DNA from: a virus
Reading direction: 5' to 3' (one strand)
IMG/VR virus record: IMGVR_UViG_3300006175_000002
Span: 39,390 to 103,389 of that record
Length of the DNA stretch: 64,000 nucleotides
Shown here: positions 35,694 to 64,000 of the stretch, piece after piece
How positions within the stretch are numbered: position 1 is the first letter of the stretch
Layout of the letters: the number at the start of each line of letters is the position of its first letter
Notes under the pieces: model-generated
The model's input: only the letters and a program-made list of their open reading frames with translations
Told to the model about the DNA's origin: nothing
Database searches by the model: none
Program-made: the position numbers and the translations under genes

Positions 35694-35767
35694 GCCGCGG
35701 TAGGCTAAATGGCAAAGCCGTTTGCTTCAAAAGCAGATGATTGTCGGTTCGACTCCGACGCGCGGCA
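35694..35767 (+). tRNA. tRNA-Leu(CAA), short variable arm
   Basis: Cloverleaf, loop TT-CAA-AA. Confidence 0.75.
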
Positions 35768-35772
35768 CACCC

Positions 35773-35845
35773 GCCCTTGAAGCTCACCAGGTAGAGCGCG
35801 CGCATGGTAAGCGCGAGGCTGCCGGTTCGACTCCGGCCAGGGGCT
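35773..35845 (+). tRNA. tRNA-Thr(GGT)
   Basis: Cloverleaf, loop AT-GGT-AA. Confidence 0.9.
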
Positions 35846-35853
35846 CGTTCAAT

Positions 35854-35925
35854 GCGGCCATAGCTCAATGGTCCGAGTACTGCCTTGCCAAGGCAATGAT
35901 CCGAGTTCGATCCTCGGTGGCCGCT
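35854..35925 (+). tRNA. tRNA-Gly(GCC)
   Basis: Cloverleaf, loop TT-GCC-AA. Confidence 0.9.
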
Positions 35926-35957
35926 CGCAACCCACACACATCAGGAGGTGACCCGCA

Positions 35958-36401: not shown

Positions 36402-36436
36402 AAGGGGTGCCGGCGGGTGTGGCGCCGGCCCCACAT

Positions 36437-36508
36437 TCTCCTGTCGTCTAACCGGTAGGATGCCTGATTCTGGCTCAGGTGATCGAGGTTCGAGTCCTTG
36501 CGGGAGAG
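36437..36508 (+). tRNA. tRNA-Gln(CTG)
   Basis: Cloverleaf, loop TT-CTG-GC. Confidence 0.9.
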
Positions 36509-36512
36509 CTTT

Positions 36513-36587
36513 GCTGGTGTAGCTCACGTTGGTTCGAGCGGCTGCCTTGTAAGCAGCAGAACGCGGGTTCGATTCCTGTCACCAGCT
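36513..36587 (+). tRNA. tRNA-Thr(TGT)
   Basis: Cloverleaf, loop CT-TGT-AA. Confidence 0.9.
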
Positions 36588-36591
36588 CTGA

Positions 36592-36660
36592 GGGCGACGC
36601 ACAGGTGTGCAGGGCTGTTTTGCAAACAGCCTTTGCTCGGTTCGATACCGAGGTTGTCCA
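36592..36660 (+). tRNA. tRNA-Ala(TGC), reduced D-arm
   Basis: Loop TT-TGC-AA; G3-U70 alanine identity pair. Confidence 0.75.
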
Positions 36661-36661
36661 C

Positions 36662-36735
36662 GCTCGCGTAGCCCAACTGGTAGAGGCGTCAGGCTTAGAC
36701 CCTGATCAGTGCACGTTCGACTCGTGTCGCGAGTA
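36662..36735 (+). tRNA. tRNA-Leu(TAG), short variable arm
   Basis: Cloverleaf, loop CT-TAG-AC. Confidence 0.85.
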
Positions 36736-36740
36736 CGCAT

Positions 36741-36814
36741 GATGGCGTGGCCTAGCTGGTTAAGGCACCACCCTGTCAAGGTGGAAATCGCGGGTTCGAG
36801 TCCCGTCGTCATCG
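36741..36814 (+). tRNA. tRNA-Asp(GTC)
   Basis: Cloverleaf, loop CT-GTC-AA. Confidence 0.9.
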
Positions 36815-36817
36815 CTT

Positions 36818-36906
36818 GGAAGGGTGGCCGAGCCCGGTCGATGGCGCCGCGCTGCTAACGCGGTTCACCTCGTGTGACGCGGGTTCAAATCCCGCCCCTT
36901 CCGCCA
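36818..36906 (+). tRNA. tRNA-Ser(GCT)
   Basis: Cloverleaf with long variable arm, loop CT-GCT-AA, encoded CCA. Confidence 0.9.
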
Positions 36907-36907
36907 C

Positions 36908-36981
36908 GTCGCCGTAGCTCAGTCGGTTCGAGCGCTTCGCTGATAACGAAGAGGTCGGGGGTTCGATCCCCTCCGGCGACA
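36908..36981 (+). tRNA. tRNA-Ile(GAT)
   Basis: Cloverleaf, loop CT-GAT-AA. Confidence 0.9.
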
Positions 36982-36991
36982 CGCACCACAT

Positions 36992-37064
36992 GCCCCCGTA
37001 GCTCAATGGATGGAGCACTTCGCTACGAACGAAAAGGATGCGCGTTCGAGTCGCGCCGGGGGCA
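36992..37064 (+). tRNA. tRNA-Arg(ACG)
   Basis: Cloverleaf, loop CT-ACG-AA. Confidence 0.9.
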
Positions 37065-37070
37065 CGCAAT

Positions 37071-37144
37071 CAGGGTGTAGCTCAACTTGGTGGAGCACGT
37101 GCCTGGGGGGCACGCGGCCGCAGGTTCAAATCCTGTCACCCTGA
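37071..37144 (+). tRNA. tRNA-Pro(GGG)
   Basis: Cloverleaf, loop CT-GGG-GG. Confidence 0.9.
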
Positions 37145-37149
37145 CTCAT

Positions 37150-37232
37150 GGAAGGTAGCGCCCAGTGGTGGGCAACCGGTCTTGAAAACCGGGCCGGGGT
37201 GACTCCCGAGGGTTCGACTCCTTTACCTTCCG
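37150..37232 (+). tRNA. tRNA-Ser(TGA)
   Basis: Long variable arm, loop CT-TGA-AA. Confidence 0.85.
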
Positions 37233-37233
37233 C

Positions 37234-37310
37234 GCGCTGGTAGCTCAGCCTGGCAGAGCGGCCGATTCTTAATCGGCGGGTCGGGGGTTCAAATCCCTCT
37301 CGGCGCACCA
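37234..37310 (+). tRNA. tRNA-Lys(CTT)
   Basis: Cloverleaf, loop TT-CTT-AA, encoded CCA. Confidence 0.9.
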
Positions 37311-37311
37311 T

Positions 37312-37385
37312 CCCCTCGTAGCTCAGTGGACAGAGCCGCAGGTTTCTACCCTGCGAGGGCGCCCGTTCGAGTCGGGCCGGGGGGA
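37312..37385 (+). tRNA. tRNA-Arg(TCT)
   Basis: Cloverleaf, loop TT-TCT-AC. Confidence 0.85.
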
Positions 37386-37389
37386 CGAT

Positions 37390-37462
37390 CTCCTGCTAGC
37401 TCAATGGATAGAGCACTTCGGTCCTAACGAAACGGTTCCCGGTTCGAGTCCGGGGCAGGAGA
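37390..37462 (+). tRNA. tRNA-Arg(CCT)
   Basis: Cloverleaf, loop GT-CCT-AA. Confidence 0.85.
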
Positions 37463-37470
37463 CGTTTTGC

Positions 37471-37542
37471 GGGCTGCTAACTCAATGGCAGAGTAGCGGG
37501 CTTTTAACCCGAGAGTTCTCGGTTCAAGTCCGAGGCAGCCCA
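37471..37542 (+). tRNA. tRNA-Lys(TTT)
   Basis: Cloverleaf, loop CT-TTT-AA. Confidence 0.9.
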
Positions 37543-37543
37543 C

Positions 37544-37615
37544 CGCGGGGTAGAGCAGTGGCAGCTCACCGTCCTCATAAGTCGGAGGTCACCGGTTCGA
37601 CTCCGGTCCCCGCTT
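37544..37615 (+). tRNA. tRNA-Met(CAT), initiator-like 5' end
   Basis: CGCGGGGTAGAGCAG start, C1 mismatch, loop CT-CAT-AA; lacks the three G-C anticodon-stem pairs. Confidence 0.8.
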
Positions 37616-37617
37616 CC

Positions 37618-37690
37618 GTCCTGGTAGCTCAGTGGGAGAGCGCCCGCCTGACGCGCGGGAGGTTCGCAGGTTCGACCCCTGCCCGGGACA
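37618..37690 (+). tRNA. tRNA-Val(GAC)
   Basis: Cloverleaf, loop CT-GAC-GC. Confidence 0.85.
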
Positions 37691-37695
37691 CGCTT

Positions 37696-37767
37696 GGCCT
37701 CGTCGACTATTGGTTAGGTTTCCGCTCTTTCACAGCGGAGGACAGGGTTCGATTCCCTGCGAGGCTA
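37696..37767 (+). tRNA. tRNA-Glu(TTC)
   Basis: Cloverleaf, loop CT-TTC-AC. Confidence 0.9.
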
Positions 37768-37772
37768 CTCAT

Positions 37773-37846
37773 TCCGGTATCGCCTAGTTGGTATGGCAAC
37801 GCACTGTTAATGCGTACAAGGGTTGGTTCGAGTCCAACTGCCGGAG
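37773..37846 (+). tRNA. tRNA-Asn(GTT)
   Basis: Cloverleaf, loop CT-GTT-AA. Confidence 0.9.
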
Positions 37847-37854
37847 CCTGTCGT

Positions 37855-37927
37855 GCCTCGCGGTCCCTCTGGTGGGGGTGCCTGACTTATGATCAGGACG
37901 TGGTGGGTTCAATTCCCACGCGGGGTA
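37855..37927 (+). tRNA. tRNA-Ile(TAT), atypical
   Basis: Stem CCTGA/TCAGG, loop CT-TAT-GA, GTTCAAT T-loop. Confidence 0.7.
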
Positions 37928-37931
37928 CTTT

Positions 37932-38003
37932 GCGCGCGTAGCTCAGTGGGAGAGCAGCCCGTTCACACCGGGCAGGCCGGAGGTTCGAGTCCTTCCGTGC
38001 GTA
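37932..38003 (+). tRNA. tRNA-Val(CAC)
   Basis: Cloverleaf, loop TT-CAC-AC. Confidence 0.9.
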
Positions 38004-38005
38004 CT

Positions 38006-38077
38006 GTGTCTATGGCGTAGTGGTCTGCGCGTCGGGTTGTGGCCCCGAAGGTCCCGGATCGTAACCGGGTAGACACC
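38006..38077 (+). tRNA. tRNA-His(GTG), atypical T-loop
   Basis: Loop TT-GTG-GC, C73, T-loop ATCGTAA. Confidence 0.75.
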
Positions 38078-38079
38078 CC

Positions 38080-38150
38080 GGGAGTGACGCATGGTGTCGA
38101 GCGCTCGCTGTAAACGAGTAGCCCTGGGGGTTCGAGTCCCTCCGCTCCCA
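38080..38150 (+). tRNA. tRNA-Tyr(GTA), short variable region
   Basis: Loop CT-GTA-AA, GTTCGAGT T-loop. Confidence 0.75.
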
Positions 38151-38155
38151 CGCTT

Positions 38156-38229
38156 GCCCTCGTAGCTCAGCGGATTAGAGCACCAGGTTCCGAACCTGAC
38201 GGTCGCGCGTTCGAGTCGCGCCGGGGGCA
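38156..38229 (+). tRNA. tRNA-Arg(CCG)
   Basis: Cloverleaf, loop TT-CCG-AA. Confidence 0.9.
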
Positions 38230-38233
38230 CGTT

Positions 38234-38304
38234 GGCGCTGTGACCGAGTGGTTAGGTGGCGGTCTGCAAAACCGCATACGCCGGTTCGAGTCCGGCCCGC
38301 GCCT
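38234..38304 (+). tRNA. tRNA-Cys(GCA)
   Basis: Cloverleaf, loop CT-GCA-AA. Confidence 0.9.
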
Positions 38305-38331
38305 CGATCATGCCATCCGCTGTGGATTTCT

Positions 38332-38401
38332 CGCGGGCGGGCCGGCCGCCCAGCTGGCTTTCATACGGCCGGTGTGCCCGGTTCGACACCGGGGCCCGCG
38401 A
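38332..38401 (+). tRNA. tRNA with CAT anticodon (Met or Ile2), atypical D-arm
   Basis: Acceptor CGCGGGC/GCCCGCG, loop TT-CAT-AC, GTTCGAC T-loop. Confidence 0.65.
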
Positions 38402-38409
38402 CTCTTCTT

Positions 38410-41095: not shown

Positions 41096-41284
41096 ATGGA
41101 TGAGCAGCAGCGGGTGGAGCAACGCGTCAAGGACCGGCAGAAGTGGCTGTCGCAGGTCGAGAACGGGGCCTACTCGGCGATCATTGGCGGGGCCAGCGAC
41201 GACGAGGTGCGGGCGGCGTGTGAGCGGGGTGTGGACGCCGCGATGGAGTCGGCCCTGTACCGGGCCACTCATCGGGTGGCGTGA
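41096..41284 (+). CDS. small helical hypothetical protein
   Basis: Fills the intergenic gap; protein-like composition. Confidence 0.4.
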   Translation: MDEQQRVEQRVKDRQKWLSQVENGAYSAIIGGASDDEVRAACERGVDAAMESALYRATHRVA

Positions 41285-43362
41285 TCAACGCAGATCCAGG
41301 TGGCGTACTGCTCGGCCTTGGTTACCTTGCCTGCATCGCGGAGTTCGTTGATCCAGCGTGAGATCGTCGCGCGGCGGCGGGTCAGGCCGGCCGCCTGCGC
41401 CTTGAGGAAGATCGTTCCTGTTCGTACTCCTTCGGGTCCGGCGGCGCGGATCAGGTCCAGGACGAACGCGACGCCGGTCTGATCGGTGGCGTCGTCGTTG
41501 TCGACGGTGGTGGGCAGCGCGGCGAGTTGAGCGGCGGTGGTCCGCCACTCCTCCGGCAGGTCATCCTCCACCGGTTTCGCCGGCCGCGGCGCGGCGGTGG
41601 CTGGTGTGGCGGCTTCTCCTCGTAGCCGGGCCCGGATCCGGTCGGCGATGGTGGCGGCGTCGTTGAGGGTCAGCGCTGGTTCCGGTACCACGTACGGGGT
41701 GGCTTCGTCTTCGTCTGGTTCGACACCGGCCAGGGCCTGCAACCACGGCCGGGCCCGTTCCCACCGTTTCGCCATGACGTCTCCACCGATCCGCAGTGCT
41801 GCCGGGTCCATGTCGGGGCGCCGGTCCTGGGTGGCTACCGCGATCTGGATCATCTGTTCGGGGAGTAGTCGGAACCAGCGGAATTTGCGTGGCGGCAACC
41901 CGCGGCGGCGGATGAATCCCGTTGGGCTGATGTTCGGGTTCAGCGGGTCGGGGCCGTTGATGTCTGACACGCGGAGGCCCTTACTCCAGTCCATGACGTA
42001 CGCGATTTCGGAGTCGTCTTCAACCATGCCGACGATCTTCAACGCGGTGGCTTTACGCACGTCGGAGGGAATGTAGGTCGCGGTGCCCCGCTGCGTGGAG
42101 AAGATCACGTTGACGCATTCGGCGCGGCCGATCGCCTGCAAATGCTGCAACGCGGCCGCGGCTTGGCGGGCTGTTTTGGGCGCGGAGCCGCCGAACACTT
42201 CGCCGCCCTCGTCGACGATGACGAAGATCGCGGGGAGTTCCGCGGACACGGGCAGCACGTCCACGTTGCGGCTGACGCGTAGCCGCTGGTAGCGGGCCTT
42301 GCGGTCTTTCGCGATCGCGGTGAGGACTTCCGCGACGATGAGGGCCTCTTCGGCGTTGCGGGCCACCCAGTAGATCGGGGGCTTGGCGAGCTGACCGGTG
42401 GCGTAGGGCATCAGCCACGGCGCGGACATGCCGCCGCCGTTGAGGTCGACGTGGATAACGATCGACTCGGTGCAGCAGAGCAGCCGGGCGGTGAGAACGT
42501 TCAGGAGGACCGTTTTCCCGGCGCCGCGCATACCGGCGATCATCGCGGAGGACTGATACACCTCGACCATCGTCGGGTCACGGTCTGCGTAGGCGCCGAT
42601 TGGGAACTCTTTCGTCACCGACCGGGGTGAGTAGTCGGTGGGGAAGTCGATGACGGAGGTGTCGTTCACGGTCGCGACGTGCAGTACCGCCGCGCCCTGG
42701 TGGGCTCCGGGGGTGGCGGAGATGACGCATCCGTTGGGGAGACGTTTCGCGGCGGCGAGGTCAGTGGCCTTGTCCTGGAGGAGCCGGTAGGAGTGGGGGG
42801 AGCCGGGCGGGAACTCGACGGGAAGGTCGTAGCCGGCCCGGTTGGGCCAGTGGGTGATGGATTGGATGTGCACGCCAGGCGGTTCCTGGATGCCGCAGAT
42901 ACGGTTGATCAGCGTTTCCCATTGCTGCTCGTCGCGGCGTACCAACGGCAGTGGTGGTGTTGCCGGTGGGGTGGGTGGGGCGAACGCGGGGGCGGTGGCC
43001 ATGGCGTAGCCGGTCGCGACCAACGCGACGATGGTGGCCACGATGCCCCACCCGTGGCCGCTGATGACCCACCCGGCCCAAAGAGTGGCGCCGCCGATGT
43101 TGTAAAGCCAGAACCGAATCGTGGCCGGATAGGCGTGGCGGCGGCGGCCGAGTACGTACACCGCCGCCGCCGCGGGGCCGGCGAGGATGGCTGGCAGGAT
43201 AGGCAGCCATGGCAGCACCTGCGGGGAAGTCAGGTGCTGCCGGCGGATGACCGCGGCGGCGGCGACGGTGAGCAGGGCGGTCAGGAAGCACACCAACGGC
43301 CCGGCGACGGGGCCGTGCGTCGGGTCGGTGCGGGGTGCCGGTGGCGGCAGCGGCGGCTTCAC
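41269..43362 (-). CDS. FtsK/SpoIIIE-family TraB-like conjugal DNA translocase
   Basis: N-terminal TM helices, Walker A GMRGAGKT, Walker B IFVIVDE, GRA...STQR, C-terminal wHTH. Confidence 0.85.
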   Translation of the reverse strand: MKPPLPPPAPRTDPTHGPVAGPLVCFLTALLTVAAAAVIRRQHLTSPQVLPWLPILPAILAGPAAAAVYVLGRRRHAYPATIRFWLYNIGGATLWAGWVISGHGWGIVATIVALVATGYAMATAPAFAPPTPPATPPLPLVRRDEQQWETLINRICGIQEPPGVHIQSITHWPNRAGYDLPVEFPPGSPHSYRLLQDKATDLAAAKRLPNGCVISATPGAHQGAAVLHVATVNDTSVIDFPTDYSPRSVTKEFPIGAYADRDPTMVEVYQSSAMIAGMRGAGKTVLLNVLTARLLCCTESIVIHVDLNGGGMSAPWLMPYATGQLAKPPIYWVARNAEEALIVAEVLTAIAKDRKARYQRLRVSRNVDVLPVSAELPAIFVIVDEGGEVFGGSAPKTARQAAAALQHLQAIGRAECVNVIFSTQRGTATYIPSDVRKATALKIVGMVEDDSEIAYVMDWSKGLRVSDINGPDPLNPNISPTGFIRRRGLPPRKFRWFRLLPEQMIQIAVATQDRRPDMDPAALRIGGDVMAKRWERARPWLQALAGVEPDEDEATPYVVPEPALTLNDAATIADRIRARLRGEAATPATAAPRPAKPVEDDLPEEWRTTAAQLAALPTTVDNDDATDQTGVAFVLDLIRAAGPEGVRTGTIFLKAQAAGLTRRRATISRWINELRDAGKVTKAEQYATWICVDHATR

Positions 43363-43386: not shown

Positions 43387-44832
43387 TTATACGTGGTCCC
43401 GGTTGTTTTTCGAGTCTGCTTTCTCTTCCACGGCGGGGGACTTGCGTGGGTTCTCGGCGCGTTCCCGGTCGGCTTCGTGTTGCCGGTCAAACGTGGCGGG
43501 CAGCTCGCCGAGGATGGACTCAGCTTCACGCATGAATTTGGCGGCGGTGCGGATCGCGTCGGGGATCGCCGAATCGACGGGTTGTGTGTCTTCGGCGACG
43601 GCGGCGAGTTTCTCGTAGTGGGCGGCGACTTCCGCGACGGCGTCGTGGCCTGCGCGGAGGGAGTTACCGAACTCGAGCAGGGACATGTCTTCGACGGCGC
43701 CCGGGTCGGGCCGCGGGCTGGTGGTGGTCACGGAGTCTCCTGTTCTGCTGTCTCCTGTTCTGCTGTGGCGGGGCTCGGCGGGGCGGGGTGGTGGCGTAGG
43801 TGGGGTGGTGGTCGGGCGGGGCGCGGCTGGTGGTGGCTGCGGGGCGGGTGATGCGGTGGCCTTCGCGGGCTCGGCCGGGGCGGCGGTCTTGGTTGGCGGC
43901 GTCGGCGCGGCGCTGGTGGTGATGTTGCGGCGGCGCCAGTTACGCAGGTTGAACTTGCTCCTCCACGAGGTGGTACCCGACGGCGACGGGGAGGACTTGG
44001 TGTTCTTGGCCGCCTTGTCTGTAGTTGCGCTCTTTGCCCGCCGCCGGAAGGGGTTCAGGCGGGCGGCCAGCGCCGCCGCGGGTGACCTGCCGCCGCCGCG
44101 GTCCGCGGCCCCGCCACCGCTGCCGGCGGTCGAGGAACTCCGCTTGCGGAAGGGGTTGAGGCGACTCGCCGCCTTCGACCAGGGGCGCCCACCGCTGCTG
44201 CCGCCACCGGAGCTGCTGCCGCCAGGCGTTTTCGACCCGCCCCGGAACGGGTTCGTCCACTTCCGCCCCCCGCCGCCGCTGCCTGACCCGGTCGACGTTG
44301 ATCGCCGGCCCCAATTGAGCGGGTTGAACCGGCCCCCGCGCCGGGCGGGCGTACCCGACTGAGGTGCCCGGCCGCGGGTACCGCCGAGCACGCGAGGCAG
44401 CCGGGACCGAAGCCCACCCCCCGGGCGGGAGCCGACAGCCCCGCGTGCGCCGCCGAGGCGACCCGGACCGGTCCCCGACCGGCCGGGGCGTCGGAACAGT
44501 CCGCCGAAGCGACCGGTCCCCCGCGGTCCCCGACCCGGACCGCCCAGACCGGTCCCCCGCGTTCGACCAGACCGGCGACGTCGGCGGTAGACCAGACCGG
44601 TAACCACGGTCCCCCCGACCGCGGCGATCGTGACGCCACCCCACACCAGTCCGAGCCACGCGATCAGTCCGAGTACACCGGACGCGGCGAGCAGACCGAG
44701 GCAGACCCACATCAGACCGGACGGGGACTGTGGTGGTGTCGCAGCCGGGCCGGTCCGGGCGGCCGGGCGGGGCCCGACCGGCCGTGGGCGTGGCGGGGCC
44801 GGTGCTACGGGGCCGGCGGGGGGGAGGCTCAC
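43387..44832 (-). CDS. membrane-anchored Gly/Arg-rich protein (Spd/transfer accessory-like)
   Basis: AGGAGA SD; two TM helices, low-complexity linker with LNPFR repeats, helical C-terminus. Confidence 0.6.
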   Translation of the reverse strand: MSLPPAGPVAPAPPRPRPVGPRPAARTGPAATPPQSPSGLMWVCLGLLAASGVLGLIAWLGLVWGGVTIAAVGGTVVTGLVYRRRRRSGRTRGTGLGGPGRGPRGTGRFGGLFRRPGRSGTGPGRLGGARGAVGSRPGGGLRSRLPRVLGGTRGRAPQSGTPARRGGRFNPLNWGRRSTSTGSGSGGGGRKWTNPFRGGSKTPGGSSSGGGSSGGRPWSKAASRLNPFRKRSSSTAGSGGGAADRGGGRSPAAALAARLNPFRRRAKSATTDKAAKNTKSSPSPSGTTSWRSKFNLRNWRRRNITTSAAPTPPTKTAAPAEPAKATASPAPQPPPAAPRPTTTPPTPPPRPAEPRHSRTGDSRTGDSVTTTSPRPDPGAVEDMSLLEFGNSLRAGHDAVAEVAAHYEKLAAVAEDTQPVDSAIPDAIRTAAKFMREAESILGELPATFDRQHEADRERAENPRKSPAVEEKADSKNNRDHV

Positions 44833-44990
44833 ACCATCTCCTGTTCGTTACTGTCTGTAAGACTTGACTCTTTGCCCTTTGCCTCTGGCGGTGGGGGTAA
44901 TGGGGGTTTTGCCTCGGCTAGCGGCGCGTACGCCCCGTCCTTGGCGGGTGGGGGCACAGGGCACACAGCACAGGGCAACGTCACGCTGTG

Positions 44991-45440
44991 TCACCACTTT
45001 TCGGCGAGGATCGGATCCCACTGCTGCTCCACAGCGGCGCGGGGGAGAAGTTCCGGGCGTACCGACTGGACCAGCGGGGCGGCGGGTGCCGGACCAGGCG
45101 GTGCGGGATCCGGGTCGGGTCGGTCCCCCACTGTGGCGGGGGACCGGTCTGGGTCCGGACTGGCCGAACGAGGCGGACCGGGGACCGGGCGGGGCGGGGT
45201 CCGGATCGGACCGGTCCCCTTCCGGGTCGCGGACCGTTGCAGCAGACCACCGACGGCGGCGATGGTCCCCGCGATGACGAGGGCCCCGACGTACACCTTG
45301 GTCACCGACCCGCCGGACCCGCCCAGCGACGCCAGTCCGAACACGGTGATCACGGCGGCGATGGCCCAGGCGCAGCGGGCGCGGACATACAGTCGGCTGG
45401 CCCGGCCGTCGGGGTACGGCTCCCGGACGCTTCGAGGCAT
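44991..45440 (-). CDS. membrane protein (Spd-like)
   Basis: Two TM helices and a Pro-rich tail. Confidence 0.55.
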   Translation of the reverse strand: MPRSVREPYPDGRASRLYVRARCAWAIAAVITVFGLASLGGSGGSVTKVYVGALVIAGTIAAVGGLLQRSATRKGTGPIRTPPRPVPGPPRSASPDPDRSPATVGDRPDPDPAPPGPAPAAPLVQSVRPELLPRAAVEQQWDPILAEKW

Positions 45441-52484: not shown

Positions 52485-52672
52485 TACGCCGTCCAGTGTC
52501 GTGGGTCGTCGCGCCAACCCCAACAGTACGGGGTACCGCACTGCGTACCGGCCTGATCGGTGGGAATGAACGGGTGCCGCCACGTCACGAGGCGCAGCCG
52601 GGGACGACGCAGCCGGTACGGCAACGGCCCATAGTCCCGCGCGGCACGCCGAGCCGAAGTAGTGGTGATCAT
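52484..52672 (-). CDS. small hypothetical protein
   Basis: ATGA overlap with upstream gene. Confidence 0.45.
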   Translation of the reverse strand: MITTTSARRAARDYGPLPYRLRRPRLRLVTWRHPFIPTDQAGTQCGTPYCWGWRDDPRHWTA

Positions 52673-53067
52673 GTCCGGACCGGTTCCGGGACGACGACGA
52701 GGCCTTCCACTGTGGCTTTGATCCGGTCCGTAATCCGCTTACGGCGCCGTTTCCACCGGTCGTCGTTGTCGTCGAGTCTGCACGCCCAGTATGCGGCGAC
52801 ACCGAACGCGTTGCCGATCATGTCGATCGGCGAATGGTGGCCGGGCAGGTCCCCGGCTGTCCAGAATATGAAAGCGGGCAGGTAGAACGGGCGCAGTTCC
52901 GCGAACAATATCCGGGCGATGTGGGCGACCCGATCAATCCATGGCGGCGTCGGTAGCCGCCGCTTAGCCGCCTCCTCGTGAACCATCGCGATCCACCACG
53001 AAGACCACCACAGCATGCAAACCCAGGCGCAAACCCAGACACATATGGTGCCTAAAACGGTGATCAC
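52669..53067 (-). CDS. membrane protein
   Basis: GGAGAGGGG SD, GTG 53067; TM helices, DDNDDRWKRRRK tail. Confidence 0.6.
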   Translation of the reverse strand: MITVLGTICVWVCAWVCMLWWSSWWIAMVHEEAAKRRLPTPPWIDRVAHIARILFAELRPFYLPAFIFWTAGDLPGHHSPIDMIGNAFGVAAYWACRLDDNDDRWKRRRKRITDRIKATVEGLVVVPEPVRT

Positions 53068-53091
53068 TTCGGCCCCCTCTCCTCGGCTTGC

Positions 53092-53132
53092 CCGCGCGGG
53101 CCGGGCCAGACCCCCCAACCCGGCCCGCGCGG
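53092..53132 (-). terminator. 14-bp perfect inverted repeat just downstream of the Cas7-like gene
   Basis: CCGCGCGGGCCGGG...CCCGGCCCGCGCGG. Confidence 0.55.
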
Positions 53133-53142
53133 AGTCTCGTAC

Positions 53143-54090
53143 TTACTCCTCGCCGGTCACGATATCGGCGTCGACCGTCTTACCGGCAGCCTTACGGGGC
53201 TTCCCGGCGGCGGCGCCTGTGGTGGTTGCCTTGACCCGCGGGCCCGCTGAAGCGATCCTCTCCCACCTCGTGACCTTGAACCGGCCGAAACCCTGCGACC
53301 TCGACGCACCCAACCCGTTCTGCTGGGCAACCAGCCAGAACCTCCGCCACTCCTCGTCGGAGTAGTCGTGAATCGACCGGACAGTGAAATCGATGACCGC
53401 GCCGACCACGTACTCCTCGTACTGGATGCCCGACCCGCGGAACGTGTGCACGAACCTTTGGTTCACCGCCGTCGGCTCGAGGACCGCGTTCAGGCCACCG
53501 CGGAGCGGGTTCTCCTGGTCGGCGAATGTGTAGAGGTGCAGCCGGTCCTCAACAACGAACAGTGTCTCCGCGAAGAACGACAGCAACCCTTTCTTGTTGT
53601 TGTTGCCGTACCCGCGGGCCGACACGAGGTTAGTATCCGCCGCGATCGAGCAGGCTTCTTTCAGGCACGCCTTGAGTTGCCGGCCCTCGACGTAGAGTTG
53701 ACCCCTCGCCGCGCTGGGGAGTCCTTCCTCGGCTTGCTCCTTCGCGTGGGCGATCGCGGCGGGGGTGCGCTTGTCACGCTTGAACTGGTTCAGGTGCTTG
53801 TCGGCTTCCTTCGCGACGGCTTCGTCGGCGGTGGCACCGGTTTCGACCATCGTTTCCGCGACGGCCTGGCGGACGAGGTCGTCACGCTGGAGGCCGAGCT
53901 TCGTGCGGAGCCACCCCTCAACGACGTTCTGATCGACGGGGATCCCGCCGGCGATGATGCTACACACGAGTTGGCCGGCGTACTCGTGGTAGACGTCGGT
54001 TTCGTACTTGTCGAATGCGCCTTCGATGGCGTATTCGAGGTTGAAGACGGGCAGTGCGGGTGCGGGTTTCCGTGCGACTGCGGTGGCCAC
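53143..54090 (-). CDS. solo Cas7/RAMP-superfamily protein (315 aa)
   Basis: GAAAGGA SD, GTG 54090; LYVEGRQLKACLKEA resembles the Cas7 P.IPGSS.KG..R helix; C-terminal glycine-rich loop GLGASRSQGFGRF; no other cas genes in window. Confidence 0.8.
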   Translation of the reverse strand: MATAVARKPAPALPVFNLEYAIEGAFDKYETDVYHEYAGQLVCSIIAGGIPVDQNVVEGWLRTKLGLQRDDLVRQAVAETMVETGATADEAVAKEADKHLNQFKRDKRTPAAIAHAKEQAEEGLPSAARGQLYVEGRQLKACLKEACSIAADTNLVSARGYGNNNKKGLLSFFAETLFVVEDRLHLYTFADQENPLRGGLNAVLEPTAVNQRFVHTFRGSGIQYEEYVVGAVIDFTVRSIHDYSDEEWRRFWLVAQQNGLGASRSQGFGRFKVTRWERIASAGPRVKATTTGAAAGKPRKAAGKTVDADIVTGEE

Positions 54091-54104
54091 GGGTGTGTCC
54101 TTTC

Positions 54105-55645
54105 GGGGTTGGGTAGTTGCCGGACTGGCTGGGCTTGTCAGTTTCGGCCCGGCGGGGGGAGGCGTCGGTAGGGCTTGTCGGACCTTGGGTCTGGGTCGGC
54201 AAGGCTTGTCGGGGTCGGGTGGACTTTGTGCCACGGAGCGGACAGGTTAGTCGGCGCGGGGGCCGGTTGGGCTTGTCGGGCAGTCAGGAGGGTGCCGGTT
54301 GCGTAGGCGGCATGGGTCGGGTAGTCGAGAGGGAAGGTTGACAGGTAGTGGCGTGGGTTGTCGGAAGAGACGTGAAGTTGGGTGATCTGGCCTGGCTTGT
54401 CAGAAGTGTTCAAGGGTCGTATTGGCTCGTCAGGCTTGGGGCGTAAGGGACAGTTCCGGATTGGATGGGCTTGTCGGGAAACGGATTGAGATGAACGTGG
54501 TTCTGGCCTGGATTGTCAGTGTGCGGCCGGGAGGAACAGAACGGGGGGCGGGGTTGTCAGTAGGGGGCCGGATTGAGTTTGGGCTGGGATGTCGATGTTG
54601 GCTGGTCGCGGCATGGATCGTCGGCGTGAGGCTGAGGTAAATCAGGGCAGGGTAGTCGCATGGGATCGGCAAGGCGCGGATCGTGGCATGGGTAGTCGAT
54701 GAGGGGCGTACGCGAGCGAGGGTGGGGCTGTCAGACACGGGATGTTCATGACCTTGTTCGAGGGACGGGTAGTCGATTGAGGCGGGAAGAACTCAGGGTG
54801 AGGGTGGGCTGTCAGGTACGGAATGGCAGGCGCAGATGGGTGCGGCATGCTTATGGCTTGTCAGATCGGGCAAGAAGCGTTCTCCATGGCACGGGTTGGC
54901 TTGTCGGACGTGACGTGAGCTGGGAATGACTCGGGCCGGGTTGTCAGGGGTGTCGCGTGTAGAAGCGGACGGGCATGGATTGTCGGGTAAGAACAGTGCG
55001 CGGCATGACGCGGGTAGTCAGACTTAGGGGGGGAGAACCAAGGGGAGTTCTGGATGGTCAGCTTCGGCCGGGGTTGAACGCGATCAGGACTGTCGGTTCG
55101 GGGATGGAAATTGGGCGGAGCCAGAAGCGGGGCGGGTTGTCGGAGTGTGGAGTGGTGTACGGGTCCTGGGATGGTATGTCAGTTGAGGGTAGGAAGCGCC
55201 ACGGCTTGGATCGGGTAGTCAGAGCCGGTAGGTACGGGTGGGTTCGGGTTGTCAGATTCGGGCCGCGTCGGCTGGCGGTGGCATGGCTTGTCAGCTTTCG
55301 GAGTGGCGGGGAACAGGTAATCGCGGCATGGCTCGTCAGGTGAGGGTGGGAAGGATCGGGTAGTCAGAATCGGTAGGTGCGGCGCCGAGCCGGGTCGGGT
55401 TGTCAGAGGATGTGGAGTGATGCGGGGCATGTTGGGTCGGGTAGTCAGATCAGACGCGGGTCGTACTTGATGGAGTAGGTGTGGGCTGTCAGAAGCGGAC
55501 TGGGCGGGGAGTCCTGATCTGGGTTGTCAGATTCGGGCGGTAAGGCTCTGAGCTTGTCTTGGGTAGTCAGAAAAGGGCAGGAATGAACGAAGACCAGGGG
55601 TGTCAAGTTTGGGGTGAGGTAGAGCGTACTGGCTCGGATTGTCAT
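54105..55645 (-). repeat. non-coding array 1: ~40 degenerate units (25-49 nt, mean ~39) with 5-nt periodicity
   Basis: + strand GGNTW-GTCRG anchor at 54137, 54177, 54208, 54250 ... 55566, 55602, 55641; G/GG recurring every 5 nt before each anchor. Confidence 0.88.
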
Positions 55646-56196
55646 TACGCCGCCGCCGCCATCGAATGCCACATCCGCGCCAACTGCTCATCAGTGAACA
55701 GATCCGCCACCGTCTCCGCGCCCCGCCGCGACTTCAACTTCTTCGCCACCGCCCGCAGGAACGCCGCGTTCAACGCGTTCTCCGCCGCCTGCGCCTCATA
55801 ATCGGTCGCGACCGACTCCAGATCAGAAACAGTCAGCGCCGACAGTGGCTTACGGGCCCCGTCGATGACGTACCGCACGTTGAGGAACGACTCAATGCCT
55901 CCCATGTCGCCGGCCTGGGCGCGGCTTGTGGCCGCGGCGAAGTCGTGGCGGCCGTTGACGACGCGGGCGTGGCCGCGGCGGCTGCGTTCAATGGTTGCGA
56001 TCGTGTCGCGGAGCAGGTTCACGGCTTGCATGTGGAGCCAGCCGTGGAGGAGGTCAGGGTCGGTGGTGTCGAGGGTACGGACGAGGTTCTCGGCGATGGT
56101 GCGGTCGGGCACAGTGCCGCGGATGGTGAGGGCGTTGTCGATGTGGACGCGCATGTCGGCGGCGTAGTTACGTTGTTCTGGGGTGTCGGGCGGCAT
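55645..56196 (-). CDS. helical hypothetical protein (183 aa) between the two arrays
   Basis: AAGGA SD, ATG 56196; normal codon usage unlike the flanking arrays. Confidence 0.75.
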   Translation of the reverse strand: MPPDTPEQRNYAADMRVHIDNALTIRGTVPDRTIAENLVRTLDTTDPDLLHGWLHMQAVNLLRDTIATIERSRRGHARVVNGRHDFAAATSRAQAGDMGGIESFLNVRYVIDGARKPLSALTVSDLESVATDYEAQAAENALNAAFLRAVAKKLKSRRGAETVADLFTDEQLARMWHSMAAAA

Positions 56197-56204
56197 GTGA
56201 CGTC

Positions 56205-57205
56205 CTTGGGTCGGGGTGGTCGGGTGGGAGGGGAGGCGACGGCGGGTACTGGATAGTCGGGTGGGGACTGGAACGGTTCGGATTGTCGGGGTGTGATGGT
56301 TGAGGTTGGATCGTCGGGATGGTTCTGGAGTGGATAGTCGGATGTGGTCTGGCTCTGGCTCGGAGCGTCGGGTTCGGGAGGTTCGGCTGGTGGTGGACTG
56401 TCTGACTGGGGTGGACAAAGGGCATTGGCTTGGACTGTCGGTTGGTGGTTTGCGCCGGGGTGGATTTTGCTGGTGAGTCAGAATTTCGGTGTGAGTTGCG
56501 GGGCTAGGGCTGGCAAGGGTAGTCAGGGTGTGGCAGGGCAGTTTGGGCAAGATCCGGGATGTCGGATTCGGGTGGGTGGGTGGGCATGAGTTGACAAGTC
56601 GGGGTGGTGCTGGCCGGGTGTTTGGGCCGGGCCGTTGAGGGCGAGGTTGGCTTGTCGGTCCGGGAGAGATCGGGACTGGGGCCGGTTAGTCGGGCGGGGC
56701 GGGTTGAACATTCGCGGCTGGGTGTGGGTTGTCGGACCGGGCCGCGGAGGGAAGGCGAGGTCTGGCTTGTCGGGCTGGTTCTGGCGTAGACACGGGCTGG
56801 ATCGTCGGTTCTTTCGGTGAGGGGTGATTCGGGTCGTCAGAGTGTGGGGGATCGTGGTCAAGTAGTGGCTTGTCGGGGCCTGGATGGGGGCTTGGCTTGG
56901 CCTGTCAGCGGGGGGTTACGAATCGGGAGTGGAGGGGTCTGTCGAATTGGGAGGAAGCAGGTACGGCATGGCTTGTCGGGCAGGTGGGCGCTGCGGCGGC
57001 TTGGTTCTGTCTTGTCAGTTTCGGTGAAGGAGGCGTCGGCAGGGGCTTGGGATGTCAGTTTCGGTTCGGAAGTACCTGGGATGGATTGTCGGTACGGCCA
57101 GTTGCGGATAGGTAAGTCGCGGCTTGTCAGATCCGGGTGCGTGCAGGCAGAGAATGGCTCGGGGTGTCAGTTTCGGTCCAGGAGTTCGCGGAGTTGGCTT
57201 GTCAG
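56205..57205 (-). repeat. non-coding array 2: ~28 units with the same grammar
   Basis: GTCRG anchors at 56219, 56256, 56285, 56313 ... 57126, 57166, 57201. Confidence 0.88.
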
Positions 57206-57208
57206 CGC

Positions 57209-57412
57209 TCACCCTAGCGATCCTTCTACGACATGGCAACCCCGCTCGTCGTGGTCCAACGCGATGGTGACAAGAAGGTGCACGGCGTAGCTGACCGTCA
57301 TATTTTGCGCATCTGCGTACGCGGCGACGCGGGCGTACACAGCCGGATCCCACCGCATCGTCTGCATATGCAGGTGACCGGCGGCCGGTGAGGGGAGGCG
57401 TTGTTTCGTCAT
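57209..57412 (-). CDS. ribbon-helix-helix (Arc/CopG-like) protein
   Basis: MQTMRWDPAVYARVAAYADAQNMTVSYAVHLLV pattern; ATGA overlap. Confidence 0.6.
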   Translation of the reverse strand: MTKQRLPSPAAGHLHMQTMRWDPAVYARVAAYADAQNMTVSYAVHLLVTIALDHDERGCHVVEGSLG

Positions 57413-57567
57413 CGGCGCCGCCATTTTCTGGGGTAGCGGGTGTGCATGGTACGGATCCGGTCGTGGACCTTGTCCCAGTAGCGGTGCACGGCCAGGGCGA
57501 GGGGTTTCGCGTCGCCGGTGGCGTCGTAGTGGCGCATCGCGGCGAGGACGTCGGGCGGGGTGGTCAT
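57409..57567 (-). CDS. small hypothetical protein (52 aa)
   Basis: ATGA overlaps at both ends. Confidence 0.45.
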   Translation of the reverse strand: MTTPPDVLAAMRHYDATGDAKPLALAVHRYWDKVHDRIRTMHTRYPRKWRRR

Positions 57568-57809
57568 AGCCACTTCCGGATGATCTCGGGGGCGCGGGTG
57601 TAATCAACGGGGAGGTTAATGATCAGGGGTTCTGAGTTGCGTACCCCGAACCAGATGACCAGGATCGGTGCCCGGTCGATGACGGTGAACGATTCCAGCC
57701 AGAGATGGCGTTGCTCGAGGTGGCCGGCGGCGGCGACGCAGCGTTTCCAGTGGCCGCTGGGGAGTAGGCCCTGCGCGAGGCACCTCGGGTCGGGGGCGGG
57801 TGTGGTCAT
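57564..57809 (-). CDS. hypothetical protein
   Basis: ATGA overlap; C...C....GH...H motif. Confidence 0.5.
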   Translation of the reverse strand: MTTPAPDPRCLAQGLLPSGHWKRCVAAAGHLEQRHLWLESFTVIDRAPILVIWFGVRNSEPLIINLPVDYTRAPEIIRKWL

Positions 57810-58156
57810 GGCGTTTCCGTGTCGAGGTAGCGCCATTCGATGCGAGTCACGTCGGTGACGCAGCCCATGTGTTCGACGAAGAAACGAACGAACTCCTCCG
57901 GTGTGACGTCGAACCCTTCCCGGGCTACGTCGTCGGGTGCGTTGAAGATCGCGCGCAACGGCTCACGCCGCACCGATACCACCTCGACGTCAGTGATGCG
58001 ATCGAGTGGCTCACCCGGGCGCCGGCCCTGGACCTTGCGGCAAAGTGTTAGCCGGTCACCGGGTTTGAGGAACTTCCACCCGAGACGTCTGGTAACGGTC
58101 TTGCGGCGATCGCGTACCGCCTGCTCGGTCAGGGCAACGGACATGAGGCGACTCAT
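57806..58156 (-). CDS. ASCH/PUA-domain protein
   Basis: RKTVTRR.GW..LKPGD and DDVAREGF motifs. Confidence 0.8.
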   Translation of the reverse strand: MSRLMSVALTEQAVRDRRKTVTRRLGWKFLKPGDRLTLCRKVQGRRPGEPLDRITDVEVVSVRREPLRAIFNAPDDVAREGFDVTPEEFVRFFVEHMGCVTDVTRIEWRYLDTETP

Positions 58157-63736: not shown

Positions 63737-64000
63737 GCCATCACCATACCGCAACCGGTATCACAACGCAGCCCCCTTGCCGACCCACACCGGGAGTTGA
63801 GCCTGTGACACTCAACCTCCCTCCGGATTCAGGCAATACCGGCACACAAGCCCCGTATCCTCGTCTTTCATGACAGTTCCGCATCCACGCACGCATAAGC
63901 GGACGGGCCCCCCGGCGGATGCCGACGGGGGCTCGTATTCACCAGCTTCGCTCGATGGTGACTCAGAGTGATTGTTACGGGGGTTTGTGACAACAGATTG

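What the first reader, a model, noticed from the sequence alone, without database searches (positions are those of the whole stretch)
53092..57412. Solo Cas7/RAMP-like gene with two 5-nt-periodic non-CRISPR arrays: candidate phage RNA-guided system
Seen: the minus-strand order is RHH gene > array 2 (~28 units) > 183-aa gene > array 1 (~40 units) > 315-aa gene > strong hairpin. The 315-aa protein has a RAMP glycine-rich loop (GLGASRSQGFGRF) and a Cas7-like LYVEGRQLKACLKEA helix. I see no cas1/2/3/5/6/8/10 and no identical CRISPR repeats. Established: Cas7/RAMP proteins polymerise along guide RNAs with a fixed per-subunit footprint. Inference: the arrays give ~70 different small RNAs that load onto a homopolymeric RAMP filament and act as programmable guides, e.g. 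against competing phages or for transcriptional control. From memory, this resembles recently reported viral solo-RAMP/periodic-repeat (VIPR-type, GGY/NN) loci. Here the gene-sense strand is C-periodic, so it may be a distinct variant. I cannot verify that relationship without a search.
Basis: partly seen in the sequence, partly recalled or inferred. Interest (0 to 1): 0.96.

Follow-up and report, generated by a model that had tools for sequence, protein, structure and literature searches.

The report
Actinophage VIPR locus, C-type guide arrays
A complete 103-kb phage of actinomycete bacteria carries a lone CRISPR-like (Cas7-fold) protein, a conserved partner gene and two arrays of about 67 different short five-base-periodic guide units; this is a VIPR RNA-guided DNA-silencing system, a kind first described in 2026 preprints, here with C-C rather than G-G fixed bases on the gene strand.

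Summary
On the minus strand lie a small RHH-like gene, array 2 (about 26-28 units), a 183-aa gene, array 1 (about 41 units), a 315-aa gene and a strong hairpin.

The 315-aa protein has a Cas7/Csm3-type RAMP fold (VIA Z up to 10.3; Foldseek E about 3e-5). It belongs to a family of more than 1,000 unnamed proteins.

In related viral and actinomycete loci, a C-rich 5-nt-periodic array sits directly upstream of nearly every homologous gene for which upstream sequence is held. A homologue of the 183-aa gene lies upstream of the RAMP gene, on the same strand, in 32 of the 57 viral loci, mostly with the array in between.

The family unit is GAC-W-A followed by (n-c-C-N-N) repeats. Unit lengths are quantised at 5n+3.

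The published VIPR "1-nt skip" rule holds in this family. Only skip 1 gives perfect guide-to-gene matches (16, against 0 for skips 0, 2 and 3). Two guides from relatives hit the most conserved codons of vipr genes, with the skipped base at the wobble position.

This is therefore a VIPR system (bioRxiv 10.64898/2026.04.26.720920), not a new kind. What differs is the C-type core on the gene-sense strand, the anchored back-to-back guides and the size of the arrays.

The RNA strand is inferred, not shown. No targets were found for the window's own guides. This scan has met VIPR loci before on other DNA.

The parts
57209..57412 (-). A 67-aa ORF at the head of the block. It looks like a ribbon-helix-helix protein by sequence pattern only.
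   Evidence: ORF and sequence were read. Pfam gave no hit. It weakly matches PHROG 8682, of unknown function, at E 0.007. tblastn of the longer 132-aa reading of this frame (57607-57209), which contains the 67-aa ORF, found no homologue in 57 related loci. It is therefore not a conserved part of the system.
56197..57208 (-). Array 2: about 26-28 back-to-back guide-like units. It starts 3 nt after the RHH-like stop codon and ends at the ribosome-binding site of the 183-aa gene.
55645..56196 (-). A 183-aa conserved partner gene, a candidate Vap (vipr-accessory protein). The predicted fold is mostly helical with one beta-hairpin.
   Evidence: Homologues of 29-44% identity lie upstream of the RAMP gene, on the same strand, in 32 of 57 viral loci. 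The AlphaFold2 model has pLDDT 87.7. No informative fold match was found. It weakly matches PHROG 4604, of unknown function.
54091..55644 (-). Array 1: about 41 back-to-back guide-like units. The first anchor overlaps the stop codon of the 183-aa gene. The last unit carries the GAAAGGA ribosome-binding site of the RAMP gene.
53143..54090 (-). A Vipr-like solo RAMP of 315 aa with a Cas7/Csm3-type fold. It has helix alpha-1 (LYVEGRQLKACLKEA) and a glycine-rich loop (GLGASRSQGFGRF). Compared with the roughly 222-aa family norm it carries an N-terminal extension, two insertions and a basic, Ala-rich C-terminal tail.
   Evidence: Family of 1,191 hits. Alignment A1. Model pLDDT 76. Foldseek against PDB gave E about 3e-5 with all listed hits type III or type VII CRISPR effector complexes or Csm3. 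The VIA wide search gave Z 10.3, and the top 42 rows are CRISPR RAMPs. BFVD phage RAMP proteins hit at E 3.5e-11. PADLOC Cas7_IIId hit at E 6.6e-4.
53091..53133 (-). A perfect 19-bp GC-rich hairpin 9 nt after the RAMP gene's stop codon. It is probably the intrinsic terminator of the block and has no U-tract.
   Evidence: -41.9 kcal/mol, z -3.4. The consensus terminator scan, which requires a T run, did not list it.

Best explanation
This is a VIPR (Viral Interference Programmable Repeat) system of a complete actinophage genome.

**Proposed mechanism.**
- The block RHH-like gene > array 2 > vap-like gene > array 1 > vipr > hairpin is transcribed as one sense-strand unit.
- The array RNA is cut or trimmed into about 67 different guides of roughly 35-45 nt.
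- Each guide is headed by a GAC-W-A pentamer, followed by about 5-8 pentamers of the form n-c-C/N-N.
- The 315-aa Cas7-fold Vipr protein polymerises along each guide, one protomer per pentamer. It holds the fixed bases and presents the variable NN dinucleotides.
- The filament binds double-stranded DNA whose sequence matches NN-x-NN-x-NN (one base skipped per repeat) and blocks transcription there.
- The likely targets are competing phages, prophages or satellites in the same actinomycete host. In relatives, the targets include vipr genes themselves.

**Shown here.**
- The RAMP fold.
- The array architecture and its conservation next to the gene.
- The conserved partner gene.
- That the 1-nt-skip code gives specific matches for guides of this family.

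**Inferred.**
- Transcription and processing of the arrays.
- That the C-rich sense strand is the guide (my estimate is about 0.7-0.75).
- Filament formation and silencing, by analogy with the solved SUSP1 system.
- What the window's own guides target.
For: **Fold.**
- VIA Z is 10.3 to Csm3 (9g9a_D), and 10.0 and 9.7 to Csm3 (6ae2_B) and type VII Cas7 (8yhd_A). The top 42 rows are CRISPR RAMPs.
- Foldseek gives probability 1.0 to Csm3 and type VII Cas7 chains.
- The best BFVD hits are phage RAMP proteins.
- Weak sequence hits go only to RAMP models: Cas7_IIId at best E 3e-6, plus Csm3, Csm4 and Cas6.

**Arrays.**
- Period 5, no period 3, and an enriched anchor motif.

**Conservation.**
- In 57 viral loci, nearly every homologue with upstream sequence has a C-rich period-5 array abutting its start.
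- 805 units give the consensus GAC-W-A then (n c C N N)k. The fixed C is 75-88% conserved, the NN positions are near-uniform, and unit lengths peak at 28, 33, 38, 43, 48 and 53.

**Partner gene.**
- A homologue was found in 32 viral loci.
- Junctions are tight in most loci. At the median the first anchor lies about 28 nt after the vap stop and the last anchor about 30 nt before the vipr start.
- A GAAAGGA-type ribosome-binding site sits inside the last unit.

**Targeting code.**
- 134 clean guides were searched against 645 kb. Skip 1 gave 16 perfect hits. Skips 0, 2 and 3 gave 0. Shuffled guides gave 0-2.
- The guide at L008:4928 matches the VAEGWL codons of vipr in 30 of 71 sources.
- The guide at L045:5672 matches the G(F/Y)GRYE codons in 21 of 71 sources.
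- In both, the skipped base falls on the wobble position.

**Sense strand.**
- There is no room for a separate vipr promoter.
- The C-rich strand is the sense strand of the flanking genes throughout, including in an inverted array in L043.
- A distant homologue's locus, L055, has canonical GGC/NN guides on the sense strand, packed between genes in the same way.
- The heading pentamer GAC/WA is itself a G-R-Y/NN unit. GAC/NN is a published non-canonical VIPR core.

**Literature.**
Against: - No expression data exist, so neither transcription, processing nor the guide strand is shown.
- The profile of this family shows no sequence similarity to SUSP1 Vipr (hhalign probability 0.2). Kinship to published Vipr proteins rests on fold and locus logic.
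- The canonical GGY core is absent on the sense strand.
- The window's own units are irregular. Only 35 of 67 stay in register, and typical guides offer just 12-14 specifying bases.
- No target was found for any window guide above shuffled controls.
- The code test rests mainly on two strongly recurrent guides from relatives. Both also match their own vipr gene, which the 2026 paper did not see in the types it tested.
Confidence: 0.72

Rival explanations
1. It is the same VIPR system, but the guides are transcribed from the G-rich plus strand, antisense to the genes. They would then read (N-N-G-g-g)k followed by a short 3' tail T-W-G-T-C. That corresponds to the NNNGG-type alternative repeat already listed in the 2026 paper.
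For: - Every core reported in the two VIPR papers read for repeat motifs is G-based. The methods of the first name NNNGG, YNNNG and NNNNG as alternatives.
- Solved Vipr pockets recognise G1 and G2.
- In this reading a variable tract precedes a conserved 3' element, as in type II vrRNAs.
- An inversion of the array relative to the gene is a simpler evolutionary step than a change of base specificity. The distant homologue's locus L055 is G-type.
- The skip-1 matches cannot tell the strands apart, because a gapped match on one DNA strand is equally a match on the other.
Against: - The arrays fill the space between co-directional genes up to the ribosome-binding site and start codon, so the sense strand must be transcribed for vipr to be expressed.
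- Antisense guides would then be fully complementary to the operon mRNA.
- An antisense promoter would have to lie inside the vipr or vap coding sequence in every locus.
- The base after G-G on this strand is not a pyrimidine.
Confidence: 0.2
2. The arrays serve the phage's own gene regulation, or are DNA-level elements rather than weapons against competitors. Possibilities include autoregulatory guides against its own vipr and other genes, iterons, or protein-binding sites. They might also be decaying relics.
For: - In two relatives, the clearest guides match their own vipr gene perfectly.
- Array-to-own-gene matches number 13 against 4-6 in shuffles.
- The window's units are degenerate compared with relatives.
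Against: - In the window's own genome only one perfect guide match was found, from a low-complexity guide. Counts are no higher than in shuffles.
- 67 mutually different units with conserved anchors are not what iterons look like.
- The same guides hit 21-30 foreign vipr genes.
- The array is conserved next to a RAMP gene across 26-100% protein identity.
Confidence: 0.05
3. The RAMP filament is guided to RNA rather than DNA, as in type III CRISPR Cas7/Csm3, or it works with an unknown effector instead of acting by simple silencing.
For: The closest solved folds are Csm3 and type VII Cas7, both of which target RNA. The function of the conserved 183-aa partner is unknown.
Against: - The two recurrent guides match opposite strands of vipr genes, one the coding strand and one the template strand. 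This fits DNA targeting and is hard to fit to mRNA targeting with a single guide strand.
- Published VIPR binds dsDNA.
Confidence: 0.03

Closest known systems
VIPR systems (Vipr + Vap + vrRNA), seven types; type II of Escherichia phage SUSP1 is the reference. Sources: bioRxiv 10.64898/2026.04.26.720920; structures in 10.64898/2026.04.26.720927; satellite conflict in 10.64898/2026.10.15.759431.
   Same: - Phage-borne minimal locus with one single-RRM RAMP that has a G-loop.
- One small accessory gene.
- No cas genes and no CRISPR array.
- Guides built from 5-nt repeats with three constrained and two hypervariable positions.
- The 1-nt-skip match to targets, with skipped bases at codon wobble positions.
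- Some guides aimed at other VIPR systems.
- Back-to-back arrays, which recall the 'staggered arrays' of the paper's Fig. S18 legend.
   Different: - The fixed core on the gene-sense strand is n-c-C, not G-G-Y.
- Guides are short (about 33-48 nt; 35-45 in the window). Each is headed by a GAC-W-A pentamer, with no long structured tail and no individual promoters. In SUSP1, each GGT/NN vrRNA stands alone with a hairpin tail.
- There are about 67 guides against 4 in SUSP1.
- There is no detectable sequence similarity to SUSP1 Vipr.
- The relation of the partner gene to vap1-6 could not be tested.
- Relatives carry guides that match their own vipr gene.
- I could not see the paper's figures or tables, so I cannot say which of the seven types, if any, includes this clade.
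Non-canonical VIPR arrays found with a genomic language model (bioRxiv 10.64898/2026.10.21.760802).
   Same: - Period-5 arrays next to Vipr-fold proteins, with fixed trinucleotides other than GGY.
- The text names GAC/NN, CAC/NN, WGT/NN and TGH/NN.
- The heading pentamer here is GAC/WA.
   Different: A c-C-C or n-C-C core is not named in the text I could read. Its Fig. S10, which lists all the patterns, is not held.
CRISPR class 1 Cas7-family backbones (Csm3, Cmr4, type VII Cas7, Csf2).
   Same: RRM core, helix alpha-1, glycine-rich loop, and a periodic footprint of one protomer per fixed number of guide bases. These are the best structural matches.
   Different: No Cas5, Cas6, Cas8, Cas10 or Cas11 partners, no Cas1, no identical repeats or spacers. 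The footprint is 5 nt rather than 6 nt, and the guide code is non-contiguous.

Membership tests
VIPR system | The effector is a stand-alone single-RRM RAMP (Vipr) with a G-loop and thumb. | tested here: met
   The AlphaFold2 model matches Cas7/Csm3 and type VII Cas7 (Z up to 10.3). The G-loop GLGASRSQGFGRF is nearly invariant in the family. The model shows a helical and hairpin insertion where a thumb would sit, but at low confidence.
VIPR system | Vipr protein homology to published Vipr proteins (phylogenetic placement in types I-VII). | tested here: inconclusive
   hhalign of the family profile against SUSP1 Vipr gave probability 0.2. The paper itself says RAMPs lack sequence similarity. A distant homologue of this family (25% identity) in locus L055 sits among canonical GGC/NN guides. 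The paper's tables and tree are not held.
VIPR system | Adjacent non-coding arrays of 5-nt repeats with three constrained plus two hypervariable positions. | tested here: met
   The fixed C is 75-88% conserved, the base before it is 52-64% C, and the NN positions are near-uniform over 805 units.
VIPR system | The fixed core is GGY, or the published related forms NNNGG, YNNNG or NNNNG. | tested here: inconclusive
   On the gene-sense strand the core is n-c-C, not GGY. On the opposite strand it reads NN-G-g-g, which would fit 'NNNGG'. Which strand is the RNA was not testable.
VIPR system | Targets are recognised by the NN dinucleotides with one skipped base per repeat. | tested here: met
   This was tested on the family, not on the window's own guides. 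Skip 1 gave 16 perfect hits against 0 for skips 0, 2 and 3 and 0-2 for shuffles. The hits lie on conserved vipr codons with wobble-position skips. For the window's guides alone, no enrichment was seen.
VIPR system | A small accessory gene (vap) in the locus. | tested here: met
   A homologue of the 183-aa gene lies upstream of vipr in 32 of 57 viral loci. Homology to vap1-6 could not be tested, and its fold gave no match.
VIPR system | Viral location, with no cas operon and no CRISPR array. | tested here: met
   The source is a complete 103,389-bp virus record with terminal repeats, carrying portal, terminase and 33 tRNA genes. No Cas1 was found and no identical repeats.
VIPR system | vrRNAs are expressed, co-purify with Vipr, and silence transcription of matching DNA. 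| not testable with these tools
   This needs small-RNA sequencing, pull-down and reporter assays.
CRISPR-Cas class 1 effector | Cas7 backbone together with Cas5 and large-subunit partners, and a repeat-spacer array. | tested here: not met
   No identical direct repeats. The neighbouring proteins give no cas hits in PADLOC or Pfam. No Cas1 was found in the genome.

The most novel reading that the evidence does not exclude
This actinophage clade may be a distinct VIPR branch with the following properties:
- Its guides are read from the C-rich sense strand of a vap-array-vipr polycistron.
- The fixed core is c-C-C in place of G-G-Y, so a RAMP filament has switched base specificity while keeping the 1-nt-skip DNA code.
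- Each short guide is delimited by a single ancestral-type GAC/WA unit that marks the processing or nucleation site.
- Some guides match the phage's own vipr gene, giving built-in negative autoregulation as well as attack on rival VIPR systems.

If so, the window's divergence at exactly the two targeted motifs (VVEGWL instead of VAEGWL; GFGRFK instead of G(F/Y)GRYE) would be an escape signature.
Probability: 0.4. Interest if true: 0.68.

Novelty: new variant of a known kind. Interest (0 to 1): 0.55.

Why it matters
VIPR systems were described only in 2026. They are proposed as the viral ancestors of CRISPR effectors and as a new programmable DNA-binding tool.

**What this locus adds.**
- It shows the same logic in high-GC actinophages, with a different fixed core on the gene strand.
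- It uses a compact anchor-delimited guide format.
- With about 67 different guides, it has the largest array among the 71 sources compared here.

If the C-rich strand is the guide, the Vipr scaffold can be retuned to hold C-C instead of G-G without changing the skip-1 code. That would widen the design space for programmable silencers. It would also give a natural pair (L055-type G-core against this C-core) for working out how the core bases are recognised.

**Arms race between phages.**
- Guides of relatives hit the most conserved codons of vipr genes.
- The window's Vipr differs at exactly those codons.
- Together these make an arms race between phage VIPR systems directly testable in Streptomyces-type hosts.

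Tried and rejected
- **Metagenome scans.** Two scans for close relatives found none.
- **Targets of the window's guides.**
  - In-register NN codes of 47 guides against 645 kb gave 152 hits with up to one mismatch, against 181-189 in shuffles.
  - An any-phase scan for hits recurring across loci was no better than shuffles.
  - A scan restricted to vipr and vap genes was no better than shuffles.
  - Collection-wide pattern scans were not run. Guides with 12-14 specified bases would return mostly chance hits.
- **Fold of the 183-aa partner.** Foldseek found no hit at E <= 0.001. The best VIA Z was 6.3, on a helical hairpin only.
- **Sequence links.** phmmer and a profile search against PDB chains found nothing relevant. 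hhalign to SUSP1 Vipr found nothing.
- **Rfam.** With permissive thresholds over 52500-58000 there were no hits, so no ribozymes or tRNA-like separators lie between the guides.
- **Promoter and terminator scan.** No sigma-70-type promoter and no informative terminator was found. This is weak evidence in a 67% GC actinophage.
- **Second period-5 stretch at 44450-45100.** It lies mostly inside a low-complexity Gly/Arg/Ser/Pro-rich 481-aa ORF and is unrelated to the arrays.
- **Purine after C-C.** The idea that it mirrors the Y of GGY was rejected. It holds only for the first repeat after the anchor.
- **Supplementary tables of the VIPR paper** are not held.

Full report
**1. What is in the sequence**

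All elements lie on the minus strand, in this order:
- a 67-aa ORF at 57412-57209, RHH-like by pattern only (no Pfam hit)
- a non-coding stretch at 57208-56197 (array 2)
- a 183-aa ORF at 56196-55645
- a second non-coding stretch at 55644-54091 (array 1)
- a 315-aa ORF at 54090-53143
- a perfect 19-bp GC hairpin, 9 nt further on (-41.9 kcal/mol, z -3.4)

The two non-coding stretches are 45-46% C on the minus strand. Their C autocorrelation is +0.14 to +0.16 at lag 5 and negative at lag 3, whereas both genes show lag-3 periodicity.

A sliding score picks these two stretches out of the 64-kb window. A third stretch, at 44450-45100, lies mostly within a low-complexity Gly/Arg/Ser/Pro-rich ORF and is unrelated.

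The motif YGACWAVCC occurs 45 times against 7.2 expected. Thirty-five copies lie in the arrays, all on the minus strand. Cutting at the anchors gives 41 units in array 1 and 26 in array 2, mostly 35, 39 or 40 nt long. All units differ from one another.

- Array 1 starts with an anchor that overlaps the stop codon of the 183-aa gene. It ends with a unit that carries the GAAAGGA ribosome-binding site of the 315-aa gene.
- Array 2 starts 3 nt after the stop of the small ORF. It ends at the AAGGA site before the 183-aa gene.

**2. The genome**

The window is the right-hand 64 kb of a single 103,389-bp virus record.
- It has terminal repeats and CheckV rates it 100% complete.
- It encodes portal, large terminase, FtsK-like and primase-like proteins.
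- It carries a block of 33 tRNA genes.
- It has no Cas1 and only one copy of the RAMP gene and its arrays.

Homologues of the RAMP gene occur in contigs of Nocardiopsis, Streptomyces, Streptosporangium, Actinomadura, Streptacidiphilus and other actinomycetes. The host is therefore most likely an actinomycete.

**3. The 315-aa protein**

It belongs to a large unnamed family: 1,191 proteins at E <= 0.001, most about 222 aa long. Its near-invariant motifs include EGRQLKxxLKEA and GxGASRSQGxGR.

The AlphaFold2 model has pLDDT 76 and pTM 0.70. Structural and sequence comparisons all point to RAMPs:
- Foldseek against PDB: every listed hit is a chain of a type III or type VII CRISPR effector complex, or Csm3 itself, at E about 3e-5 and probability 1.0.
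- A Foldseek-independent search of 48,161 chains: the top 42 rows are CRISPR RAMPs. The best are Csm3 at Z 10.3 (rmsd 5.3, 162 aligned), Csm3 at 10.0 and type VII Cas7 at 9.7.
- BFVD: the best hits are phage proteins, one of them annotated as a RAMP (E 3.5e-11 to 6e-7), followed by archaeal-virus proteins.
- PADLOC: family members give weak hits only to RAMP models, namely Cas7_IIId (best E 3e-6), Csm3, Csm4, Cas6 and Cmr6.

Compared with the family norm, the window's protein has an N-terminal extension, two insertions and a basic C-terminal tail.

**4. Conservation of the locus**

Fifty-seven viral loci and thirteen genome loci were fetched.
- Nearly every homologue with upstream sequence has a period-5 array directly upstream of the gene. 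The array is C-rich on the gene strand, with a GC skew of -0.3 to -0.55. Some loci have further arrays downstream.
- A homologue of the 183-aa protein (29-44% identity) lies upstream on the same strand in 32 viral loci, with the array filling the gap to the RAMP gene.
- In most loci the first anchor follows the partner's stop within about 2-50 nt. The last anchor lies about 8-60 nt before the RAMP start, and the last 20 nt hold a GAAAGGA-type ribosome-binding site.
- The small RHH-like ORF is not conserved.
- The partner's model is mostly helical (pLDDT 87.7) and matched no known fold.

**5. Grammar of the guides**

Pooling 805 anchored units gives GAC-W-A followed by pentamers n-c-C-N-N.
- The third position is C in 88, 82, 77, 75 and 67% of successive repeats.
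- The second position is C in 52-64%.
- The two following positions are close to uniform.

Unit lengths peak at 28, 33, 38, 43, 48 and 53 nt, that is 5n+3. This is the three-fixed, two-variable architecture of vrRNAs.

The window's own units are a looser version. They carry one extra pyrimidine before GAC and frequent internal register slips. Only 35 of 67 stay in register with a pyrimidine throughout.

A more distant relative, L053 (26% identity), has the same NNNCC repeats on the sense strand with a different anchor, TTGCAAC.

**6. The known system**

VIPR was reported in 2026. It comprises a stand-alone RAMP (Vipr), an accessory gene (vap) and vrRNAs of GGY/NN repeats. These bind dsDNA through the NN dinucleotides with one target base skipped per repeat, and they silence transcription.
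- Seven types are described, with 'related' cores (NNNGG, YNNNG, NNNNG), staggered arrays and ribozyme-separated arrays.
- Cryo-EM shows one protomer per repeat, with G1, G2 and Y3 held by the protein.
- A later preprint lists further non-canonical cores: GAC/NN, CAC/NN, WGT/NN and TGH/NN.
- In SUSP1 itself I confirmed that GGT/NN tracts with hairpin tails lie on the gene-sense strand.
- The family profile has no detectable sequence similarity to SUSP1 Vipr, as expected for RAMPs.

**7. Test of the targeting code**

From arrays of all loci I took 134 guides with at least seven in-register repeats. I searched their NN strings against 645 kb (all loci plus the whole phage genome, with arrays masked), allowing 0-3 skipped bases.
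- Skip 1 gave 16 perfect matches.
- Skips 0, 2 and 3 gave none.
- Shuffled NN orders gave 0-2.

All 16 come from one guide, L008:4928. It matches the codons for the conserved VAEGWL motif of vipr genes on the template strand, with every skipped base at a wobble position.

A second recurrent guide, L045:5672, matches the codons of the G-loop motif G(F/Y)GRYE on the coding strand.

Without masking, the two guides match 30 and 21 of 71 sources perfectly. These include their own vipr genes.

Array-to-own-gene matches are about 2.5-fold above shuffles (13 against 4-6).

The window's vipr differs from both guides. It has one mismatch at VVEGWL and two at GFGRFK.

**8. Which strand is the guide?**

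The skip-1 matches cannot decide this, because a gapped match on one DNA strand is also a match on the other. I favour the C-rich sense strand at about 0.7-0.75, for these reasons:
- The arrays fill the space between co-directional genes up to the ribosome-binding site, so the sense strand must be transcribed for vipr to be expressed.
- The C-rich strand is the sense strand of the neighbouring genes in all loci of the clade. This includes an inverted array in L043, which is flanked by minus-strand genes. A block inversion would keep this relation under either reading.
- The locus of a distant homologue, L055, has canonical GGC/NN guides packed in the same way on the sense strand.
- The heading pentamer GAC/WA is a G-R-Y/NN unit only on the sense strand.
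- On the opposite strand, the base after G-G is not a pyrimidine.

Against this, every core reported in the two VIPR papers I read for repeat motifs is G-based, and the solved pockets hold G.

**9. Targets of the window's guides**

None were found.
- In-register codes of 47 guides gave no excess over shuffles.
- Any-phase scans for recurrent hits gave no excess.
- Scans restricted to vipr and vap genes gave no excess.
- There is no meaningful self-targeting in the 103-kb genome.

With 12-14 specifying bases per guide and no large target collection open to gapped searches, the question stays open.

**10. Verdict**

- The kind of system is already published, so this is not categorically new.
- It is best filed as a variant of VIPR, with a C-type core on the gene strand, anchor-delimited short guides, a conserved helical partner of unknown fold and an unusually large repertoire of guides.
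- This scan has met VIPR loci before on other genomes, and this same array was noted in another reading.
- Tools that were unavailable or gave nothing are listed under Tried and rejected.

Noticed in passing
window 35079-38402 (+): A block of 33 tRNA genes covering most amino acids lies in a 3.3-kb stretch of the phage genome. One of them is 95% identical to a tRNA-Thr of Mycobacterium phage StAugustine.
   Followed up: no
L008:4928-4970 and L045:5672-5710 (related viral loci): [quoted passage not shown] They hit 30 and 21 of 71 sources, including their own vipr gene. This may mean autoregulation, or anti-VIPR guides that also hit self.
   Followed up: partly
window 53143-54090 (-), residues about 56-61 and 267-273: The window's Vipr and its 80%-identical relative read VVEGWL and GFGRFK where the family consensus has VAEGWL and GYGRYE. 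These are exactly the sites hit by the two recurrent guides. It may be an escape signature and is only suggestive.
   Followed up: partly
L055:3330-4900: This viral locus holds a gene found as a 25%-identical homologue of the window's RAMP and, just upstream, a second ORF of similar size that I read as Vipr-like by eye only. Four short canonical GGC/NN guide tracts (with GAC variants) lie on the sense strand, packed between co-directional genes. It is a G-core counterpart of the C-core clade.
   Followed up: partly
L053:5690-6100: A 26%-identical relative in a 47% GC virus has a sense-strand NNNCC array downstream of the gene. The array is punctuated by a different anchor, (C/T)(A/T)TTGCAAC.
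   Followed up: no
L043:7780-8850: A third array of this locus is inverted. It is co-oriented with minus-strand genes on both sides and is followed by a 12-bp stem-loop before a gene that matches PHROG 6439.
   Followed up: partly
window 43387-44832 (-): A 481-aa ORF extremely rich in Gly, Arg, Ser and Pro gives a spurious period-5 signal over most of the 44450-45100 stretch. It lies next to an FtsK/SpoIIIE-like gene at 41269-43362.
   Followed up: partly
window 20702-25234 (-): A 1,510-aa ORF combines a portal-protein match (residues 84-545) with a short ParB-like match and a further PHROG match near the C-terminus. This is an unusually long portal fusion.
   Followed up: no
genome ends (G000:C1:1-110 and 103280-103389; window 63891-64000): A 110-bp direct terminal repeat is present, so the 103-kb record is a complete genome.
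   Followed up: yes
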